Source of the DNA: Leucoraja erinacea
Lineage: Eukaryota
Length of the DNA stretch: 64,000 bases
NCBI RefSeq assembly: GCF_028641065.1
Contig: NC_073384.1
Span: 44,392,001 to 44,456,000 of the forward strand
Reading direction: 5' to 3'
The stretch's first letter is position 1. Every line of letters begins with the position of its first letter. Made by a program: the position numbers and the translations under genes. The notes beneath the pieces were generated by a model, which ran no database searches, was not told the DNA's origin, and saw nothing but the letters and a program-made list of their open reading frames with translations. This document shows, piece by piece, positions 10,401 to 62,145 of the stretch.

Positions 10401-10715
10401 TACCATAATTTAGATGGAATATACAGAATAAGAAGTCCATTTAAGGCACTGGTTTTATACCTATATTTATACTCCTTCCTCCCTAGTTCAACGAATCATG
10501 AGCTTAAATTGTTTTAATTCTATCAGTGGATTTTTCATATAATTTACATGAGCCCCTTGCCTCCATTCCACAGCAAAGTATCATGTTCAGCTTTAGCATC
10601 ACTGCTGGCCAAAGATACTAGAGCAAGAGCAAGATAGACCATTCGGCGAAAAAGCCGTAGTAGGTCATGGGTAAATTTTAACGGCATCTTAGTAACCTGC
10701 TTCACGATTAGCGCC

Positions 10716-12456
10716 ATGGCGCCCACATTTACAACCACAAGCTCAGCTTACTGTTCTGCTATAAATTGCTCAAATCGCCAAAGTAGACAACCCCACCTAT
10801 CTTTCTTCAGGTTCCCCAATAACAAAGAAAGGTGAGAAAAAATTATCTGTCGCTATTATTCTGTTGTGAAAATATTATTTTCTGTTCTCCCATCAATGGT
10901 CATGGGGAAATTAGGTTTGTCGGTACATGAGAAAGTTATTAGAAAGTTTTTAAAAAATAGATCTAGGCTTACCACAATAATAAAGTTATCAATTTTTACA
11001 CTGCTGTACATTTTTGGTTTTGTTCCTGTTGTAAGGCATGCATGCTAGTGTAAGAAGATTTTAATAAGCTCTTCTATATTTAAGGTAAATTGACATATTA
11101 GAGGAAAAATGCATCTTCAATATACAGGTCTCTCCCCACCACTGAAAACAATTGCACTTAAGTGATATATCGCCCATTCTGCAGGTATGTAGCTATAATC
11201 AAATTTGTCCTTATAAGTTAATCCTATTTGATATTTTCTGTAATTTCAGATGTCGACAGTGGGTCCAGCATACTCGTCGATAAGGTCTCCTACACCGAAC
11301 TCCGGTGTACTTGTCAAACAACTGCCGTCTTTGTTCTGAACACTTCGAACTTGACCAGTTTTCCAACAAGCAGACCAAGAACAGGCTAAATTGGAATGCA
11401 GTTCCAACGTTCTTTGACATCCCTAACCCGCCGAAACGTCTGTCTTCCCAACGCAGGTTACTCAAGAGAAAGAATGAGAACCTATCCTCACCAAAGCCTT
11501 CAAAGCAGCAAAGAGGTAGGCCTATTTGCAAGTATTTTTTTTCCCTTTTAAAATAACATTTATTTTCTCACTTTGGCAAAATTACAAATTTGCATACTAA
11601 CTGATACAATTGGAAATGGTACAATATGTAATAGCATGTATGGCACTTCTATTTTCATTTGTGAAATGTTCACAAAACTATAATCACACATAAGGCCACT
11701 TGGTGTAGGTTAATAGAATGTGCACTGTATTTAAACATCCATTTAAAACTTCCTCAAGCATAATTTAGACAACATTTAAATGATTTAATGGGACTTCAAA
11801 AAATCAAGATCATGATTTTCTTTTGGTAGACTGAAATTGGTGCATCACATCTATTTTAAATGATAATTAGTAGTAGATGCTGCTTTATTTACATGTATGC
11901 TAAATTTATTTAATTTGTATACTTCTCATTTTCCCCCCCTTCTCATTTTTTTTTGTCTTGGCAGTGTCACACAACGTACAGGCCGGACATTGTTACTGTT
12001 TAGCTGCAGACCAAATTCATGAGAATGAGCCCAGCAGTGTTTCTCCAACTCCTGATGCACATGATCTAAAATTCACCCCAAAATGTAAATGACAGCAGAG
12101 CTCTGAAGAAGGAAAGACAGCGTACTTTCCGCCTCAAAAAAAAAGTACAACAGATTAAACTAACAATGGAAAGGGATACTAAAGAAAGAAAAACAATTAG
12201 TGACTTGATCAGAGGAGCTGGTGAATTTTTACAAGAACCAGCACGGTCTTTCTTTGTGTCATAATTGCGGAATGCGTCAGGACGTAGAAGAGCAAAAGGA
12301 AGACGATGGAGTTATTCAGACAAGGTAGTTGCCTTGTCCCTCTACCATCAGATTGCCTTTATGGTTTATGTACATCATCTGAGAAATAGAATAAAGAGAG
12401 AAATAGAGCATTGCCTTAAATCAAAGTTGCTTCTGATCCATGAGAAGGAACTTTGA
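10716..12456 (+). pseudogene. Spliced THAP-domain P-element transposase pseudogene (exons 10716-10831, 11250-11515, 11965-~12456)
   Basis: Kozak gcgccATGG. MAPTFTTTSSAYCSAINCSN..LSFFRFP|RCRQWVQHTRR*..RLCSEHF..NAVPTFF gives the C2CH THAP motif and AVPTIF-like box. Exon 3 has GRRWSYSDKVVALSLYH, typical of the P-transposase N-terminal region. Introns are GT-AG and phase-compatible. In-frame TAA at 11281-11283, frameshift near 12090, stop near 12262. Confidence 0.88.
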
Positions 12457-12746
12457 AATCTATTTATCTCTATCTTACGTTTATATATTATTATATATTT
12501 ATATATAATAAGTTAAATTTGTGCATAGTGTGTGTTAGAGCAATACAAGGGAAACTGCACAAAAGACAGGGATGGGGAAGGATGGGAGGGAAATGGGCAG
12601 AAACAGATAGATTAAGCAGGGGGAAAACATTTTAAAAGAAAATTAACAAAATATGTGAATTGATAGATGAGCTATATCACACACGTACTGTTCCCCTACA
12701 ACACTGATTACACTGCGAGAGGCATAACGGAAGTCAGGTTGAAAAT

Positions 12747-13894
12747 TGGATTGGATTTGGATTGGATTCAATTTATTGTCATTGTCTCATAAGAGACAAC
12801 AAACTGGACTTTCCTTATACAGGTGCACAACCTTTTAACATTTTCCGAAAAAGCACAAGATACAGAAGTCCACGACACAACATCCCCACAGCGGCACCAA
12901 AGTTCCCCACTGTGAGGGAAAGTCCCCAGTCAGCCTCCATGCTGATCGGGTCCCAGATGTTCACCCGCGTCGGGTAGCTCCGACCCCGAGCACCCTGTAG
13001 GCGCCGCTACGGCCCCAGCTGGCCCGATGTTCAGGCCCTGGGATACCAGCGGGGTGCGGGCAATGCCTTACCGGGGAAAGATGGAACCCCGAGCGTCGTT
13101 GTACGGGAGAACATGCAACCCTCAGCGGCCTGGATCCTCTAAATCAGCTCCGGAGCTTGCTGCACGGCCCCGGTAAGGCCACCGGTAGTCGCTGCGATGC
13201 CGCCGACTCCCGACGAACGTCCGGCCACAGGCTGAGCTGGGCGAAGATTCACGCCTGGTCGGAGCTCCAACTGGCGCCCCCGACAAAGGCTCAAAGAATT
13301 AAAGTTTCCCCCGCGATGTTGGTCATCCCTCCAAACTAACCGCGACTTGGGAGATCAGTCCGGGGAGGAGGCACAGCTCCGCGCTACCTACCTGTCGATG
13401 AAAGCATGTCCAAAATCCGACAAGTGTCTGGTCCCAAGGCTTTCGGATAAAAGGTTGGAGTCATAAAACAAAGGGTCCGATCCCCCAGGTGAGGCATCGA
13501 TCTTCCGAGATGTTTCACCCGTGGTCCGCGATGTTGAATCCTCAGCGGCCTGGCAAATCAGCCACCTCCCACCGGGAGCTCCACAGGCTGAGCTGGGTCG
13601 GTCCCCCCGACAAAGGCTCAAAGGACTCCGCGATGTTGGTCAGCGCCGGAGCTCAGTAAACCACAGCTCCCATGTCGATGCAGCAGGCCCAACACTCCGG
13701 TAGGTAGGTATCCAGCACTGCTGGAGCTCTGGTCGGTCCCGGCAGGAAAGGCCGCACGAATCCAGTAGGTAGGCCGCGAGGGGGGGGGGGGAGCGCGAGG
13801 ACGCGCCTCGAATAATAATCGCATCCTCTCCAGGAACCGACTGAAGTAAAATACTAAAGTGGTGGCTGCTCTGTTCCGTTGCGTACTGCCACTC
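12747..13894 (-). mobile_element. GC-rich non-coding retroposon nested inside the P element
   Basis: Minus-strand tail GACAATGACAATAAATTGAATCC(AATCC)n resembles the Rex-Babar tails at 21230 and 29890. CpG-rich body has an internal duplication (~13120-13330 vs ~13540-13640). Confidence 0.65.
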
Positions 13895-14009
13895 AGTGCA
13901 TTGAATGATTCAAGAGTGGTCAATCTTGCTCTGCTCTAGTGTCTTTGCTGCTGGCTGACATATACTAACTGAAAGATAACAAAACTTTTGGAATATTCAA
14001 TATCCCTGT

Positions 14010-21229: not shown

Positions 21230-22163
21230 AGATTCAGATTCAGATTCAATTTTAATTGTCATTGTCAGTGTACAGTACAGAGACAACGGAATGCATTTAG
21301 CATCTCCCTGGAAGATGGACAGACTCAATGGAGGGGAGCGAGAAACCGGGGATGCGTTGGGCAATTTTCACCACCCTCTGCAATGCCTTCCGGTCGGAGA
21401 CAGAGCAGTTGCCATACCATACTGTGATGCAGTTGGTAAGGATGCTCTCGATGGTGCAGCGGTAGAAGTTCACCAGGATCTGAGGAGACAGATGGACCTT
21501 CCTCAGTCTCCTCAGGAAGAAGAGACACTGGTGAGCCTTCTTGACCAGAGTTGAGGTATTGTGGGTCCAAGAGAGGTCATCGGAGATGTTGACTCCCAGG
21601 AACCTGAAGCTAGAAACACGTTCCACCTCCGTCCCGTTAATGTGGATGGGGGTGTGCGTGCCGCCTCTGGACTTCCTGAAGTTTACAATGAGCTCCTTGG
21701 TCTTCTTGGAGTTAAGGGCCAGGTTGTTGTCAGTGCACCATGCTGCTAAGTGCTGGACCTCCTCCCTGTAGGCCGACTCATCGTTGTTGCTGATGAGGCC
21801 AATCACCGTTGTATCATCTGCATACTTGATGATGGTGTTAGTACCATGTACAGGTGTGCAGTCATAGGTGAAGAGGGAGTAGAGGAGGGGGCTCAGCACA
21901 CAGCCCTGTGGAACGCCGGTGTTCAGGGTGAGGGTTGAAGAGGTGTGCTTGTCTAACCTAACAGACTGGGGTCTGTTGGTTAGAAAGTCCAGTATCCAGT
22001 TGCAGAGGGAGGGGTCGATGCCCAGGTTACCGAGTTTGGTGATCAGTTTTGATGGTATAATGGTGTTGAATGCTGAGCTGTAATCGATGAACAGCATTCT
22101 TACGTAAGTGGCTCTGTTGTCGAGGTGGGAGAGGGCGGAGTGAAGTGCCGTTGAGATGGCATC
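21230..22163 (-). mobile_element. Rex1/Babar LINE, 5'-truncated, with ~200-bp internal 3' deletion
   Basis: ORF 21297-22097: [50 protein letters not shown]; (TGAATC)n tail. Confidence 0.92.
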
Positions 22164-29887: not shown

Positions 29888-31268
29888 TAGATTCAGATTC
29901 ACATTCAACTTTAATTGTCATTGTCATTGTACAGTACAGAGACAACAAAATGCAGTTAGCATCTCCCTGGAAGAGCGACGGGGGGTGATTGGCAGTCACC
30001 GAGGTACATTGTTGAGTAGAGTGACAGCTGCAGGGAAGAAGCTGTTCCTGGACCTGCTGGTCCGGCAACGGAGAGACCTGTAGCGCCTCCCGGATGGTAG
30101 GAGGGTAAACAGTCCATGGTTGGAGTGAGAGCAGTCCTTGGCGATGCTGAGCGCCCTCTGCAGACAACGCTTGCTTTGGACAGACTCAATGGAGGGGAGC
30201 GAGGAACCGGTGATGCGTTGGGCAATTTTCACCACCCTCTGCAGTGCTTTCCGGTCGGAGACAGAGCAGTTGCCATACCATACTGTGATACAGTTGGTAA
30301 GGATGCTCTCGATTGTGCAGCGGTAGAAGTTCACCAGGATCTGAGGAGACAGATGGACCTTCTTCAGTCTCCTCAGGAAGAAGAGACGCTGGTGAGCCTT
30401 CTTGATCAGAGTTGAGGTATTGTGAGTCCAAGAGAGGTCATCGGAGATGTTGACTCCCAGGAACCTGAAGCTCGAAACACGTTCCACCTCCGTCCTGTTG
30501 ATGTGGATGGGGGTGTGCGTGCCACCCCTAGACTTCCTGAAGTCTACAATGAGCTCCTTGGTCTTCTTGTGGCTAAGGGCCAGGTTGTTGTCAGCGCACC
30601 ATGCTGCTAGGCGCTGGACCTCCTCCCTATAGGCCGACTCGTCGTTGTTGCTGATGAGGCCAATCACCGTTGTATCATCTGCATACTTGATGATGGTGTT
30701 AGTACCATGTACAGGTGTGCAGTCGTAGGTGAAGAGGGTGTAGATGAGGGGGCTCAGCACACAGCCCTGTGGAACGCCGGTGTTCAGGGTGAGGGTTGAA
30801 GAGGTGTGCTTGTCTAACCTAACAGACTGGGGTCTGTTGGTTAGAAAGTCCAGTATCCAGTTGCAGAGGGAGGGGTCGATGCCCAGGTTACCGAGTTTGG
30901 TGATCAGTTTAGATGGTATAATGGTGTTGAATGCTGAGCTGTAATCGATGATCAGCATTCTTACGTAAGTGTCTCTGTTGTCGAGGTGGGAGAGGGCAGA
31001 GTGAAGTGCCGTTGAGATGGCATCCTCCGAACTCCTATTCTTGCGGTAGGCAAACTGATAGGGATCCAGTGTGGGGGGTAGGCAGCCTTTGAGGTGTGCC
31101 AGGACCAGGCTCTCGAAGCACTTGGTGATGATGGGGGTAAGTGCAACTGGGCGGAAGTCGTTAAGGCTTGCCGCAGTGGAGTGTTTTGGCACTGGCACGA
31201 TGGAGGTGGTTTTAAGGCACGTGGGGACAACTGCTTGGGCAAATGACAGGTTGAAGATGTCAGTCCAG
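29888..31268 (-). mobile_element. Rex1/Babar LINE, 5'-truncated, with uninterrupted 400-aa RT-to-C-terminus ORF (29996-31198)
   Basis: [47 protein letters not shown]; (TGAATC)-like tail; TSD ACGTCATAC(T/C)CT at 29876-29887 and 31269-31280. Confidence 0.95.
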
Positions 31269-36959: not shown

Positions 36960-38380
36960 GTCTGAGTCGCTCCTTTTTTTTCGCTTTACTACACCAAGCG
37001 CTGCACTGCGCCGAACCATGCCACACCACGCCGTAGTGCGCTAAGCAACCACCCCCTTCATGTGAAGACCGACAGTAAAAAGCAGTGAATAACAGAAGGA
37101 AGCAAGCGGACGCCAGGCAACGCCGCTACCCCGCACATTGACGCATTGCAGGTATGGCCCAGCCAATCAACGGCCGCAGAGGCACCGGCCGCTCCAGCGT
37201 CATGTGGGCTTCGTCTGCCTCCGCAGGAGTAAAATAATCCGCCCTAGCTCTTCGGGGCAGCTACAGAATTGGGCCACTTTATTCGGCCGAGGATAGAACT
37301 GGATTATGGAATCGAGCTGGTGACTTGATGTATAACCCATACAAAGACGGAGCTTTGGGTTGCTTCTGCAATAGTGGGGATGTCGGTTGGAGGAAGGGGG
37401 GTGGGGAGAGAAGCTGATCCGCGAAGATCGCGGTGGGCGGGGCCTGGGCGGAGGGATACGGGACAGAGAGGAGTTAAGCAGCCGCGGTGAGCGGGGGTGT
37501 TTATAGTCAGTGGCCGTGAACGTCTGAGGAGTTAAGGCGCCAGCGAACAACCGGTGATAAGTTAACGTAGCAAAATGGTGAGTTCTGCTCCACATCGGGA
37601 GTCTCTAGTCTACTATTTCCCACCTCCTCCTCCTCCTCCTCTCCCTGCGGTGCGGCAGGATAAGGTGGATGTTTCCAAACGTAGCCGCAGATATATAGAC
37701 GAGACTTTTTTTTGCTTTTCCGCCCTCCCGGTCGGCGGCGTGGGCTGGGAGTTTGGAGGGAGGATGAGAACCGCTGCAAAACCCACCGCGGCCCATTCGC
37801 CTCGTCTCGAATCTAATCTTAGCCTTCCCGTCCCCGCTATGAAGGCGGGTGATGGGCAAAGCGGGGAGTCGTTACATATCCGGGATGCGTGTTTTAAAAA
37901 AAAACCGATACTACCCGGGGCGTGTCACGTTCGGGTCACATCTTTATTTTAAATGTTTATTTTAATGCAGCCGCCGTGACCTTACCGTGTTTTTTTTTCC
38001 GCGGTGGTGGTTGCGTCCGCCCGCCCGCTCTCGCCGACCCTCCAATTCAAACTGCGGTAACGGTTCGGGCCGTTAATCGAACGCGAGACAAAGCTCAACG
38101 GCCGCGGGCGGGAGATCGAACCGCAGGGGCGCGCGCCAGCCACGGAGAGCGCGCGCGGTGACCCCCCACCCCCCCAGCGCGGCCCGGTAGGGCGGTGAGG
38201 TTAAGGGCTCTCGGACACGGTACAGGAGGGATGCAGACAAGGGAGGGTAGCTAGCTCTCCGATGACGGCTGATTTTAAATTATCAGCACTTCCGGCTGCA
38301 GACGCGCAATGCAGAAGTGAGGGAAGTGGCCACCGCAGCGCTTGGATCCGTCATCTGCAGCCCCGCTGCATGATGTTGGC
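36960..38380 (+). promoter_or_regulatory. CpG island / calmodulin promoter and first intron
   Basis: High CpG density; CRE-like TGACGCA 37139-37145, CCAAT 37163-37167, GC box GGGCGGGG at 37435; surrounds the ATG-only first coding exon. Confidence 0.85.
37575..37577 (+). CDS. CALM2: Calmodulin exon 1 (ATG only)
   Basis: gcaaaATG|gtgagt, the conserved ATG-only first coding exon of vertebrate calmodulin genes. Confidence 0.88.
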
Positions 38381-38499
38381 GAACTGACTTTCTTGAAAAA
38401 TAAAACTTGCCCTCTAACGCACTAATTTTGATGTGCATGTAACTTAAAGGTGTTTTGTGAAGAAATCTGAAACGTTTGTCCTACATCTTTTCTGTTAGA

Positions 38500-38815
38500 A
38501 ATAGAAACATAGAAATTAGGTGCAGGAGGAGGCCGTTTGGCCCTTCATTGTGATCATGGCTGATCATCCATGGTCAGTAACCCGTGCCTGCCTTCTCCCC
38601 ATATCCCACGATTCCGCTAGCCCCCAGAGCTCTATCTTAACTCTTTTTAATTCATGCAGTGAATTGGCCTCTACTGCCTTCTGTGGCAGAGAATTTCACA
38701 ACTCTGGGTGAAAAAAGTTTTTTTCGCATATCAGTTTTAAACCAAGATTCGCTATAGATCTTTGGTTTTAAATGACCTCTCCTTTATTCTTAGACTGGTT
38801 CTGGACTCTCCCAAC
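38500..38815 (-). mobile_element. CR1 3' end in calmodulin intron 1, carrying a 23-bp insertion
   Basis: agaaacatagaaattaggtgcagga tail; same family as 2355 and 34995. Confidence 0.85.
38742..38764. mobile_element. Probable P-element excision footprint
   Basis: CCAAGATTCGCTATAGATCTTTG between 8-bp direct repeats GTTTTAAA (38734-38741, 38765-38772); termini resemble the CAAAGAT TIR ends. Confidence 0.65.
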
Positions 38816-39405
38816 AGGTGGCGATTCTGTCACCTCGCTTGGTTTTCCTTGTATTTTATGGGGTTTTTTGGGGGGGGGGTTGGAGGATGAGCGAGGTTGT
38901 CATTGAAGTCTACTGAGGTCTGACTGCTGGCTGGGTGGAATTTTGGGATTTTACTTTTCCAGTTTCAAGCTTTGTTCCTCTTGCCTCAGTGACCATTTAC
39001 ACTTCAATGGCTTTTGACGTATTTAACGAGCTGCTTTGAAACTGCCCTACTGGTGATGAAGATCAAACTTTTTAAAATCCCAATAAGTGAATTGGAACTT
39101 AATTTGAATATGTTATGTTAAGTATACGGTAGTCAATGCTTCTATGGTGAAACTGTTTTCTAGAGAATTTTGTGTTGGTAGAGGGTTAATGTGTATAGAA
39201 ATAGGTTTTGGAAACTTACACCCTGGTTTTGTTTTGCCTATTGAATTAGTCTTAATGTCAAATTATCACAATACGTGATCTGAAGAAAATCCTGAAAAAT
39301 TCATTGTAAATGTTGAGGTATTTATTAACACAAAGTATGTTATCTTAAAACTTTAGTGTCTTTAATTGGAGTGCAACATCTTTAAACTAAGCTGCTTAGC
39401 TTTTT

Positions 39406-39578
39406 AGAGGTAGACAAACATGCTGGAGAAACTCAACGGGTGAGGCAGCATCTATGGAGCGAAGGAAATGGACAACGTTTTGAGCCAAAATCCTTCTTCA
39501 GACTGAAAAAGCCTCACCCACTGAGTTTCTCCCAGCATTTTTGTCTACATCTGATTTTCCAGCATCTGCACTTAAACA
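39406..39578. mobile_element. Short fold-back Penelope-derived element
   Basis: Inverted terminal copies; 14-bp TSD CTGCTTAGCTTTTT at 39392-39405 and 39579-39592. Confidence 0.75.
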
Positions 39579-39739
39579 CTGCTTAGCTTTTTGTTTGACT
39601 TTATTAAGTGTTTTGTAAACTTGAGATTCCCCATGGAGAGTAATTTTGAGATTTATTTGTTCGACCCCTCTAAATTTGTTAGTCTATTATGGCTATCTTG
39701 CGTAAGGAAAGTGTGTAATTTGCAAACGTTTGTTTTTAG

Positions 39740-39770
39740 GCTGATCAACTAACAGAAGAGCAGATTGCTG
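39740..39770 (+). CDS. CALM2: Calmodulin exon 2
   Basis: tttttag|GCT GAT CAA.. ADQLTEEQIA, |gtaagt; 31 nt. Confidence 0.97.
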
Positions 39771-41195: not shown

Positions 41196-42106
41196 TAAAC
41201 TTGCATACTAAAGATTCTTTATGCTTTCTTTGGCATATCTAAAATGCTAACAAGTTGGATTTTATCTGTATTGTTGCTCTTGGTATACAAGACTCACTTT
41301 TGAGTACACACTTTGTTTTGGATTGAGCCTTAACTTTAGGATACTTCCAATATAGGCCTCTGGTGGTTTGTTTTCATAGCCATGTATTAAACGTGGTTGT
41401 TATTGGTATGGAATGTGGTAACCGTTATACGCAGTAATGGGAGACTCCTGGTTGAAAGAACCAGAGCACCTGGTTGAGCAACCTTGCTCTGAAACAATAA
41501 CATTGGACCTTTTGAGCAGATAGGATCTGTTAATCTTAAAGGTGGTGGGTAATTTGTACAAATCAGTTACATTGTTCTTGTGGACAAAGCTCTATTAATG
41601 TTCAGGTACAGAAGTCTGGATGGATGTTTGTGTTGCACTCGCTGGGAATAGTGGTGTAATTTCAAGCTCTTGAGCATGGTAATTTGGATATAGAAATCAG
41701 AACCACAAGGAAGATTGCTTATAGGCATTTAACAAATTTGATAGATGAATATGTGTTGGACAGAGACCAATTGATTAGATTTTTTTTGGTGTTCTTAACA
41801 TGGATGTTGACTAGAGAATACACAATTTGGGGGGGGGGGCAGTGCCTCAAAATTGACATTAGCCACTGAGGACTGGTTTTTTATGATTTTAGTTCTTTAC
41901 CACTGAAGGCTTTGTTTTTGAACATGATTGGAATGGAATTGTGGTAGGGATCAGCTATGATCTTATCCATTATAACGTATGCTCCACCTGGCATACTGCC
42001 ACTTGGTATGGGATTTTAACTTGTAGAAAGTTGTTTTTAACATTTCAACCCTTTCCCTTAAGACTATTAAGTACTGATATGTTCTGTATCTTTAAACTTA
42101 GAATGA

Positions 42107-51035: not shown

Positions 51036-51504
51036 GGTTATTGTCTGTTATGCTGCTCACCTCAAATGGAAACTTTTAAAGCTGACTCTGCCAAAATATT
51101 ATATTATTTTAAAGATAACCGAGTCAGCTTTCTTTCCACCAGAGTCCATTCATCCTTCACTGAAAAGTATACTTTTGAGGTTCTCATATTATCTTTGTAT
51201 ATCTTCCCTGCACTGTCCCCAATGTCTTCATGTTTGATTATATAGTATGGTCACCTGAACTGTCCACCCTAATTTTCTAATGTGTGAAGATCATTCATAG
51301 AATAGTGCAGCAAAGGAAGAGACCCTTCTGTCCACAACATCTGAGTCAACTATAATATAGTTAGTCCCAAATACCCACACATGGTCTGTAATCTTCTTTT
51401 GCCTACTTATTCATGTAGTTGGCTAAATGTCTCTTCAATATTGCTATCATATTTGCTTCAACATTCCAGGCACATACCACTTGCTGTATAAAAGAGCTTC
51501 CTGA

Positions 51505-51953
51505 AGAGCTACCCTGCTTGAAATGGTATGAAACTGCATTTGAATGTGTTGGCCTTGCACCCTGCATGAAATGGTATGAAACTGCATTTGAATTTGGTGG
51601 CTTTGCACCCTGCAGGAAATGATATGAAACTGCACTTTAATTTGGTGGCCTTGCACCCTGCTTGGTGGCATGAAACTGCACTTGAATTTGGTGACCTTGC
51701 ACCCTGCATGAAATGGTTGGAAACTGCATTTGAATTTGGTTGCCTTGCACCCTGCTTGCGATGGAGTTTCAAGGAATAGCCGTGAGCCAACTGCCAGCCC
51801 ACCAGCCGTGAGTGAGCTGCCAGCACATCAGGCTTGAGTGACTGAGCTGCCACCCCAAGAATCCATATTGGAATTGATGGAGAGGTGGAATATTGCATTG
51901 GGGACCAGCTCTCCTGTGTGAACATGGGACCCAACGGGTCCCACTTAGTCTAG
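51505..51953 (+). mobile_element. Helitron-like 3' end carrying a minisatellite
   Basis: Hairpin TGGGACCC-AAC-GGGTCCCA (51925-51943), then CTAG (51950-51953) followed by T; sits within an older CR1-like fragment. Confidence 0.7.
51512..51760 (+). repeat. 48-bp minisatellite, ~5.2 copies
   Basis: CCCTGC unit starts at 51512, 51560, 51608, 51656, 51702, 51750. Confidence 0.95.
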
Positions 51954-60862: not shown

Positions 60863-62145
60863 TCAAGAGTCAAGAGTGTTTTATTGTCATATGTCCTGAA
60901 ACGGAACAATGAAAGTTTTACTTGCAGCAGCACAACAGATATGTAAACATTGTACTCTGAAAAACCCATAATAAACATCAAAATAGTTCAATATATATTT
61001 TTCAAAAACCCCACAGATAAATAAATCAATGACAAAGGACATTTATTGTCATATACACCAATTGGTGTAGTGAAATTTGAGTTGCCATTGCAGCACACCA
61101 ATAAAATAAACGCAACATTAAAGAATTTAACATTAAAACTAAAAACATCCCACTACAATGGTTCCCACTGTGTGGGAAGGCAGCAAAGTCCCGTCCTCTT
61201 CCTCTTGTTCACCCATGGTCGGGCCTATTGAGGCTTCCGCAGTCGCTGCGAAGGTGGCCTGATGTTTCAGGCCCTCTCGCCGGATGATGGAGCTCCGGCA
61301 TCGGAAGAACACTCTCAGCGGCCTGGAGTGTCTGGAACGGACGCTGTCTACCAGAGACCGCGGCTCCCGAAGTCCACAGGCCGCACTGGTCAGAGCTCCA
61401 ACACTGGTAATCTCTGCGAGAGATCACAGGCTCCGCGGTGTTTAAAAGTCAGTGCCACCCATGACTGGACGCTCCGCGACCACAGCTCCGCTATGTTAGA
61501 GTCGGTGGTCTCAGCATTCTGGAGCTTACCACACGGCGGCCCTCGGTAAGGCATCGCCCGCTCAGCGATGGTGCTTCAGCGCTGCGCCGCCGCCGAAGCT
61601 GAAGTTCTGGCCGCTCCCGGCAGGAAACGCTGGTCTAGTCCCGTTGGTAGGCCGTGAGGAAGAGGCGAAGATGTGGCTCGGAGGAAAGGGACTGAGAAAA
61701 AACAATTTCCCCCTTCCCCCCCCCCCCCCATATAAAAAGACTAGAAAACCTCCAAGCCAAAACACACTAACACACTAAAAATAAAAAAAGGTTTATAGGA
61801 CGAAGAGTTGCAGGCAGGGGCGCCCCCACTCAACTCCAATAAAAGTGCAAAGTCAAAAATAATACCCCCGAGATGACATAGTTCAGTCTATTTGGAGGCT
61901 GAAGTGTTTAATAGCCTGATGGTTATAGGGAAGAAGTTGCTCCTGAACCTGGATGTTTCTGTTTTCAGGCTCCTATACCTTCCCAATGGCAGGCGTGAAA
62001 TGAGAGTGTGATCAGGGTAGTGTGGGTCTGATGATGCTGGCTGCCTTTTTGAGGCAGCGACTCATGTAGATCCCTTCGATGGTAGGGATCTACATGAGTA
62101 CCCATAATGCACTGGGCAGTGTTCACTACTTTCTGCGATCTTTGT
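60863..62145 (-). mobile_element. Rex-Babar 3' fragment with a nested GC-rich retroposon (~61035-61830)
   Basis: (CAAGAGT)n tail at 60863; QKVVNTAQCIMG on -; nested GC-rich body with a GACAATAAA tail. Confidence 0.7.

What the first reader, a model, noticed from the sequence alone, without database searches (positions are those of the whole stretch)
38734..38772. Probable P-type excision footprint (TIR stubs between 8-bp TSDs) in calmodulin intron 1
Seen: a CR1 tail is interrupted by 23 bp flanked by GTTTTAAA duplications. The right 15 nt read CAAAGATCTATAGCG on the minus strand and the left end is CCAAGAT, both resembling the CAAAGATACTAGAGC TIR of the element at 10610. Known: Drosophila P transposase makes 17-nt staggered cuts, so repaired donor sites keep up to ~17 nt of each TIR. 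Inference: a related subfamily inserted and excised here, which would show the same cleavage chemistry operating in this lineage.
Basis: partly seen in the sequence, partly recalled or inferred. Interest (0 to 1): 0.7.

Follow-up and report, generated by a model that had tools for sequence, protein, structure and literature searches.

The report
Probable P-transposon excision scar
A 31-base scar inside a calmodulin intron of a skate-like fish looks like what is left when a relative of the fruit-fly P jumping gene cuts itself out; it is a neat fossil of a known process, but one scar cannot show that the cut was the same 17-base cut as in flies.

Summary
GTTTTAAA (38734-41) + 23 nt + GTTTTAAA (38765-72) interrupts a LINE 3' fragment in calmodulin intron 1; 5 of 5 paralogous copies that cover the junction lack it. 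The insert fits two stubs (7 nt left, 16-17 nt right) of the 31/32-bp TIR of the element at 10610-13947, better than 0 of ~20,000 random 23-mers. That element is P-superfamily: exact 8-bp TSD, THAP domain, and an 85%-identical match over 41 aa to a P transposase. New here: both insertion sites have the same flanks, ATCA-N8-TGAC, as a 14-bp P-type target palindrome predicts. The scar is also in a second species label. Best reading (~0.7): a related P subfamily inserted, excised, and the TIR overhangs were end-joined; fly P scars of this shape are published. Not shown: the donor family (no genome, no filled allele), and the 17-nt stagger. One scar gives only a lower bound of about 16 nt, and aborted gap repair gives similar products. 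A new natural example of a known scar type; modest interest.

The parts
38734..38741 (.). left copy of the 8-bp target-site duplication GTTTTAAA
   Evidence: paralogs carry a single GTCCTAAA-like 8-mer here
38742..38748 (+). left TIR stub CCAAGAT (6 of 7 identical to TIR positions 1-7)
38749..38764 (-). right TIR stub, 16 nt (17 if the junction T at 38748 is shared); aligns to positions 1-17 of the 10610 TIR with one gap and 2 mismatches
38765..38772 (.). right copy of the 8-bp target-site duplication
38730..38733 (.). left target flank ATCA, identical to the left flank of the element at 10610
38773..38776 (.). right target flank TGAC, identical to the right flank of the element at 10610
38501..38816 (-). 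host repeat: 5'-truncated LINE 3' fragment (CR1-like; clade name recalled), very high copy
   Evidence: depth in the millions; longer paralog encodes RT
37578..39739 (+). calmodulin intron 1 (exon 1 ends in ATG 37575-77; exon 2 39740-39770 encodes ADQLTEEQIA)
10610..13947 (+). defective P-superfamily element used as the reference: 32/31-bp TIRs, 8-bp TSD CTGCTGGC (10602-09, 13948-55), THAP exons and the start of the HTH region, in-frame stops, no catalytic domain seen

Best explanation
Excision footprint of a P-superfamily transposon. (1) Shown: 31 bases were added to an already inserted LINE fragment, as 8 duplicated bases plus 23 new ones. (2) Strongly inferred: the inserting element was a P-type relative of the element at 10610, which chose a TCA-N8-TGA site and made an 8-bp TSD. 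(3) Inferred: a transposase later cut the element out, cutting one strand at the element tip and the other well inside the TIR, so each donor end kept a long 3' overhang of TIR sequence. (4) Inferred: end joining trimmed the left overhang to 7 nt, kept 16-17 nt of the right one, and joined them, perhaps over a shared T. (5) Shown for one other species label: the scar predates that split. The stagger is at least about 16 nt if no repair synthesis took place; exactly 17 is not shown. The scar is most likely neutral, about 1 kb from either splice site.
For: Insert absent from 5 of 5 covering paralogs. Two-stub fit to the 10610 TIR scores 15, reached by 0 of 20,000 random window 23-mers and 0 of 5,000 shuffles; the right-stub score plateaus at TIR positions 15-17 and then falls. 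The reference element is P-type: THAP PF05485 E=1.4e-8; 35 of 41 aa identical to P0008, which carries the P HTH, RNase H and GTP-binding domains. Both sites read ATCA-N8-TGAC; TCA-N8-TGA occurs at 4e-4 and ATCA-N8-TGAC at 2e-5 per position in this window; fly P uses a 14-bp palindromic target, TSD plus 3 nt each side (PMC2577343 section 6). Fly P leaves 17-nt 3' overhangs and asymmetric junctions such as 8+2+16 or 9+2+14 nt between intact TSDs (PMC2895639 passages and Table 1). A random internal deletion would leave 17 nt or less at both ends with probability 0.016 (200-bp element) to 6e-5 (3.3-kb element). A 110-nt contig of organism C at single-copy depth spans 38695-38797 with 1 other letter and 1 gap.
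Against: No full-length element with the stub's termini was found: none in the window, no whole genome held, 0 matches in viral contigs, and the 9 metagenome and 2 prokaryote-genome matches lack a partner TIR and look like chance. No filled or cleanly empty orthologous allele appeared among the rows shown (tables cut; 4 of 24 listed runs laid). The stubs differ from the only TIR at hand (left: 1 mismatch in 7; right: 1 gap and 2 mismatches), so a sister subfamily or decay must be assumed. n = 1. The flank match is partly built into the host repeat (3 of 5 paralogs have TCA on the left, 0 of 5 have TGA on the right), and its extension to 4 nt was noticed after the fact. Zebrafish THAP9 left larger flanking deletions, not neat stubs, in S2-cell assays (PMC10983969 passage).
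Confidence: 0.68

Rival explanations
1. P-family remnant, but not a plain record of the cut: after excision the gap was partly refilled from the sister chromatid and then end-joined (aborted SDSA), or an intact element collapsed by internal deletion. Stub lengths would then say nothing about the stagger.
For: Most recovered wild-type fly products are SDSA plus end joining (PMC2895639 passage). Same TIR, TSD and target evidence as the best explanation.
Against: Both stubs are 17 nt or shorter, which random deletion rarely gives; synthesis tracts have no reason to stop at 16-17 (inference).
Confidence: 0.17
2. Scar or micro-element of another 8-bp-TSD transposon, or another framing of the duplication (7-bp TTTTAAA with CC...GG ends; TTAA; TA).
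For: The target is AT-rich and nearly palindromic, so 2-, 4-, 6- and 7-bp framings are formally possible, and the 7-bp framing gives CC...GG ends with one indel.
Against: Only the 8-bp framing gives symmetrical TCA/TGA flanks and puts CAAAGAT at the tip, in register with the P element. hAT elements cut by flank hairpins and are not expected to leave long TIR stubs; piggyBac and Kolobok termini do not follow TTAA here (recalled knowledge, not tested).
Confidence: 0.08
3. No transposon: a templated or fold-back insertion made during break repair inside the LINE fragment, with a chance likeness to the TIR.
For: The 47-nt region folds as a hairpin, z = -4.25; a 13-nt piece of the insert resembles sequence about 130 nt upstream.
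Against: The best local template score (9) is reached by 654 of 2,000 shuffles; the hairpin is what two TIR stubs in a palindromic target give; the TIR match is beyond chance.
Confidence: 0.07

Closest known systems
Drosophila melanogaster P-element excision junctions (P{wa} assay, PMC2895639; passages and Tables 1-3 seen)
   Same: Intact 8-bp TSD on both sides, TIR stubs of 17 nt or less, asymmetric lengths, short or no microhomology.
   Different: Those are experimental products of a known element (tables from Rad51 mutants); this is one old natural scar in a vertebrate with no donor element in hand, and TIR and target sequences differ (TCA-N8-TGA versus ATR-N8-WAT).
P-element transposase chemistry (review PMC7776569; passages seen)
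   Same: 31-bp TIR, 8-bp TSD and THAP domain of the reference element match the fly P plan.
   Different: The 17-nt stagger is measured for the fly enzyme; it was not measured here.
Zebrafish Pdre / zfTHAP9 (PMC10983969; passages seen)
   Same: Vertebrate P-like elements with 8-bp TSDs and internally deleted copies; the enzyme excises Pdre2 and fly P.
   Different: 13-bp TIR plus 12-bp subterminal repeat, different termini; the passages report larger flanking deletions and give no cleavage offset for the fish enzyme.
Galileo (P superfamily; PMC4168063 passages seen)
   Same: Palindromic target motif extending beyond the TSD.
   Different: Mostly 7-bp TSD and long TIRs; the word footprint does not occur in that main text.

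Membership tests
P superfamily (reference element 10610-13947) | 8-bp (or 7-bp) TSD | tested here: met
   CTGCTGGC on both sides
P superfamily (reference element 10610-13947) | TIRs with CA...TG ends | tested here: met
   32/31-bp TIRs starting CAAAGA, 2 mismatches and 1 gap between them
P superfamily (reference element 10610-13947) | N-terminal THAP domain | tested here: met
   PF05485, E 7.6e-4 (exon 1, below cut-off) and 1.4e-8 (exon 2, above cut-off)
P superfamily (reference element 10610-13947) | P-type transposase core (HTH, RNase H, GTP-binding insertion) | tested here: inconclusive
   The window piece itself had no Pfam hit and the core seems deleted; its last 41 aa are 85% identical to P0008, which has all four P domains
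P excision footprint (38734-38772) | Both TSD copies retained | tested here: met
P excision footprint (38734-38772) | Insert made of head-to-head TIR stubs of a P element | tested here: met
   fit to the 10610 TIR beyond chance, with mismatches
P excision footprint (38734-38772) | Each stub no longer than the cleavage stagger (17 nt) | tested here: inconclusive
   7 and 16-17 nt, but n = 1 and the exact TIR is unknown
P excision footprint (38734-38772) | 14-bp palindromic target shared with the family | tested here: met
   TCA-N8-TGA at both of the 2 sites
P excision footprint (38734-38772) | Full-length donor family with the same termini | tested here: inconclusive
   not found, but no genome of the organism could be searched
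P excision footprint (38734-38772) | Filled allele at the orthologous site in a relative | tested here: inconclusive
   organism C has the scar; no spanning contig shown for A, B or D
P excision footprint (38734-38772) | 17-nt staggered, GTP-dependent cleavage by the transposase | not testable with these tools
   needs a cleavage assay or a genome-wide scar census

The most novel reading that the evidence does not exclude
Skate genomes hold many such scars of the CAAAGA-terminus P families, with retained TIR length capped at 16-17 nt. That would be a natural, genome-scale record that the 17-nt staggered cut is conserved in a vertebrate P transposase with its own TCA-N8-TGA target motif, and a way to read cleavage offsets from genomes without biochemistry.
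Probability: 0.45. Interest if true: 0.5.

Novelty: new member of a known kind. Interest (0 to 1): 0.3.

Why it matters
The 17-nt stagger is a hallmark of the fly P transposase; the passages read on zebrafish THAP9 give no offset for a vertebrate enzyme. Natural scars could supply that number cheaply. This single scar points to a family and a search pattern (TCA-TSD-CAAAGA...TCTTTG-TSD-TGA) with which the question becomes testable in skate assemblies. By itself it settles nothing and probably has no effect on calmodulin.

Tried and rejected
TIR pattern searches: viral contigs 0; metagenomes 9 loci and prokaryote genomes 2 loci, none with a partner TIR, judged chance. Loci encoding the P transposase P0008: none confirmed in viral contigs (4 candidates) or prokaryote genomes (63 candidates). 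Contigs laid on 38300-39400 from 4 of 24 listed runs: the host repeat broke the unitigs; joints 38722 to 38765 (X1) and 38723 to 38767 (X5) skip the insert but have short sides (21-22 nt) and unknown letters between, so they are probably paralogous copies and were not counted as empty orthologs. No further scar of this family in the window. Local-template origin rejected. Earlier-findings look-ups by sequence and place were blank. Ten literature searches (listings only, apart from the five papers cited) showed no report of natural P scars or of this TIR family in cartilaginous fish; the library lacks most subscription journals and repeat databases, and no supplements were read, so this is weak evidence of absence. 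I recall, with no call behind it, an abundant skate MITE whose TIR begins like the right stub; the one search for it found 0 papers, so it stays an unverified lead.

Full report
Observation. The window reads GTTTTAAA at 38734-38741, CCAAGATTCGCTATAGATCTTTG at 38742-38764 and GTTTTAAA at 38765-38772. It lies in calmodulin intron 1: exon 1 ends in ATG at 37575-77, exon 2 (39740-39770) encodes ADQLTEEQIA, and later exons encode EF hands. The host is a short minus-strand repeat fragment (about 38501-38816) of very high copy number; a longer paralog in the window encodes a LINE reverse transcriptase. The name CR1 is recalled, not tested. BLAST found 7 non-self matches in the window; the 5 that cover the junction all lack the extra 31 bases and carry a single GTCCTAAA-like 8-mer. 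Both 8-mers at the site share the same TT in place of the paralogs' CC, so the duplication copied this site's own sequence.

Organism. No genome is held. The closest named relatives of the window's transposase piece come from the skates Amblyraja radiata and Leucoraja erinacea, so the window is probably from a skate (inference).

The reference element. 10610-13947 has TIRs of 32 and 31 bp starting CAAAGA and an exact 8-bp TSD CTGCTGGC. Its exons encode a THAP domain. The third piece had no Pfam hit of its own, but its last 41 residues are 85% identical to P0008, a 566-aa protein with the P-element HTH, RNase H N and C parts and the GTP-binding insertion. The copy is broken by in-frame stops and no catalytic region was seen. 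It is a defective P-superfamily element with a fly-like plan (31-bp TIR, 8-bp TSD; PMC7776569 passages).

Does the insert come from such ends? Scoring it as a left stub plus a right stub against the 10610 TIRs gave 15, reached by 0 of 20,000 random window 23-mers (draws on the stub and TIRs skipped) and 0 of 5,000 shuffles. The left stub is 7 nt with one mismatch. The right stub aligns to TIR positions 1-15 to 1-17 with equal score (one gap, one or two mismatches) and then falls off. Since the left 7 nt already use up part of the 23, the right stub cannot exceed 16-17, so this plateau is weak evidence for a cap. The specific pattern arose 0 times in 60 simulated windows at one mismatch per end and 5 times at two; a TIR-blind pattern arose 0 in 40 and 6 in 100.

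Independent support from the target. Seen as empty sites, the element sits in ATCA-CTGCTGGC-TGAC and the scar in ATCA-GTTTTAAA-TGAC. TCA-N8-TGA occurs at 4e-4 per position in the window, the 4-nt version at 2e-5. Fly P recognises a 14-bp palindrome, the TSD plus 3 nt each side, most informative at its ends (PMC2577343, abstract and section 6). Caveats: two sites only; the host repeat often has TCA on the left (3 of 5 paralogs) though none of 5 has TGA on the right. Of the possible framings of the duplication only the 8-bp one gives symmetrical flanks and a CAAAGAT tip.

Other species. The run search listed 24 runs under four species labels; one run of each label was laid. The run of organism A had 0 differences in the unique flanks. 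In organism C one 110-nt contig at depth 31, like the single-copy flanks (25-38), spans 38695-38797 with 1 other letter and 1 gap, with more than 31 letters on each side of the insert: the scar is shared with that species label. For A, B and D no spanning contig was among the rows shown (89,867 pieces and 17 joints not shown). Two joints that skip the insert have short sides and probably come from paralogs. No filled allele was seen. The state in B and D is open.

Mechanism. Fly P transposase cuts at the 3' tip and 17 bp inside the TIR on the other strand (PMC7776569), leaving 17-nt 3' tails on the donor (PMC2895639). Its junction tables show both TSDs intact with asymmetric stubs such as 8+2+16 and 9+2+14 nt. 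The 7+16 scar fits that class. Shown: the insertion, the duplication, the TIR likeness, the target match, presence in a second species label. Inferred: a sister subfamily as donor, excision, end joining. Not shown: the stagger. The same paper says that most wild-type products come from incomplete synthesis followed by end joining, which uncouples stub length from the cut; and zebrafish THAP9 left larger flanking deletions in S2 cells (PMC10983969). Random internal deletion is disfavoured (0.016 to 6e-5). A local-template origin has no support (654 of 2,000 shuffles score as well); the hairpin (z -4.25) is expected from inverted stubs.

Missing piece. No element with the stub's exact termini was found in the window or in the collections that could be searched, none of which is expected to hold skate DNA.

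Comparison and novelty. It works like a fly P donor-site scar and most testable features are met, so I file it as a probable new member of a known kind. Ten searches listed no paper on natural P scars in cartilaginous fish; the library is incomplete and no supplements were read. An unchecked AI note from another genome describes thousands of P-like scars with family-specific lengths (e1-7810740); it is a lead that makes the genome-wide test attractive and lowers the surprise of one more scar, but it is not support.

Verdict. Observation confirmed; P-type excision footprint likely (about 0.68; any P-derived remnant about 0.85); the claim of the same 17-nt chemistry is compatible with the data but unproven. 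Interest 0.3.

Noticed in passing
window 10716-12351; proteins P0002, P0003: The P family's THAP-linker-HTH region is close to a Priapulus caudatus protein (75% over 94 aa to the window piece; 68% over 247 aa to a skate copy), about as close as some skate paralogs (70-87%). Possible horizontal transfer between marine animals, or contamination; the one search on it listed no paper on this by title.
   Followed up: partly
window 12741-13830: A GC-rich stretch of about 1.1 kb sits inside the P element where the catalytic region would be; 62 nt of it match 61598-61659. Not identified.
   Followed up: no
window 41656-41685: GTAATTT + CAAGCTCTTGAGCATG + GTAATTT: 7-bp repeat around a 16-nt insert with CA...TG inverted ends, in a later calmodulin intron. 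Could be a scar of another P-like family, but chance gives 7-21 such hits per 100 windows.
   Followed up: partly
proteins P0004, P0006: Leucoraja erinacea gene models join this P family's THAP region to a B-box (TRIM55-like) protein: exonisation of a P copy or an annotation artefact.
   Followed up: no
window 21316-21615 and 30177-30476: Two 96%-identical copies of a reverse-transcriptase ORF (288 and 427 aa, minus strand), a young LINE family.
   Followed up: no
window 51476-51758: Tandem array of about 46-48-bp units.
   Followed up: no
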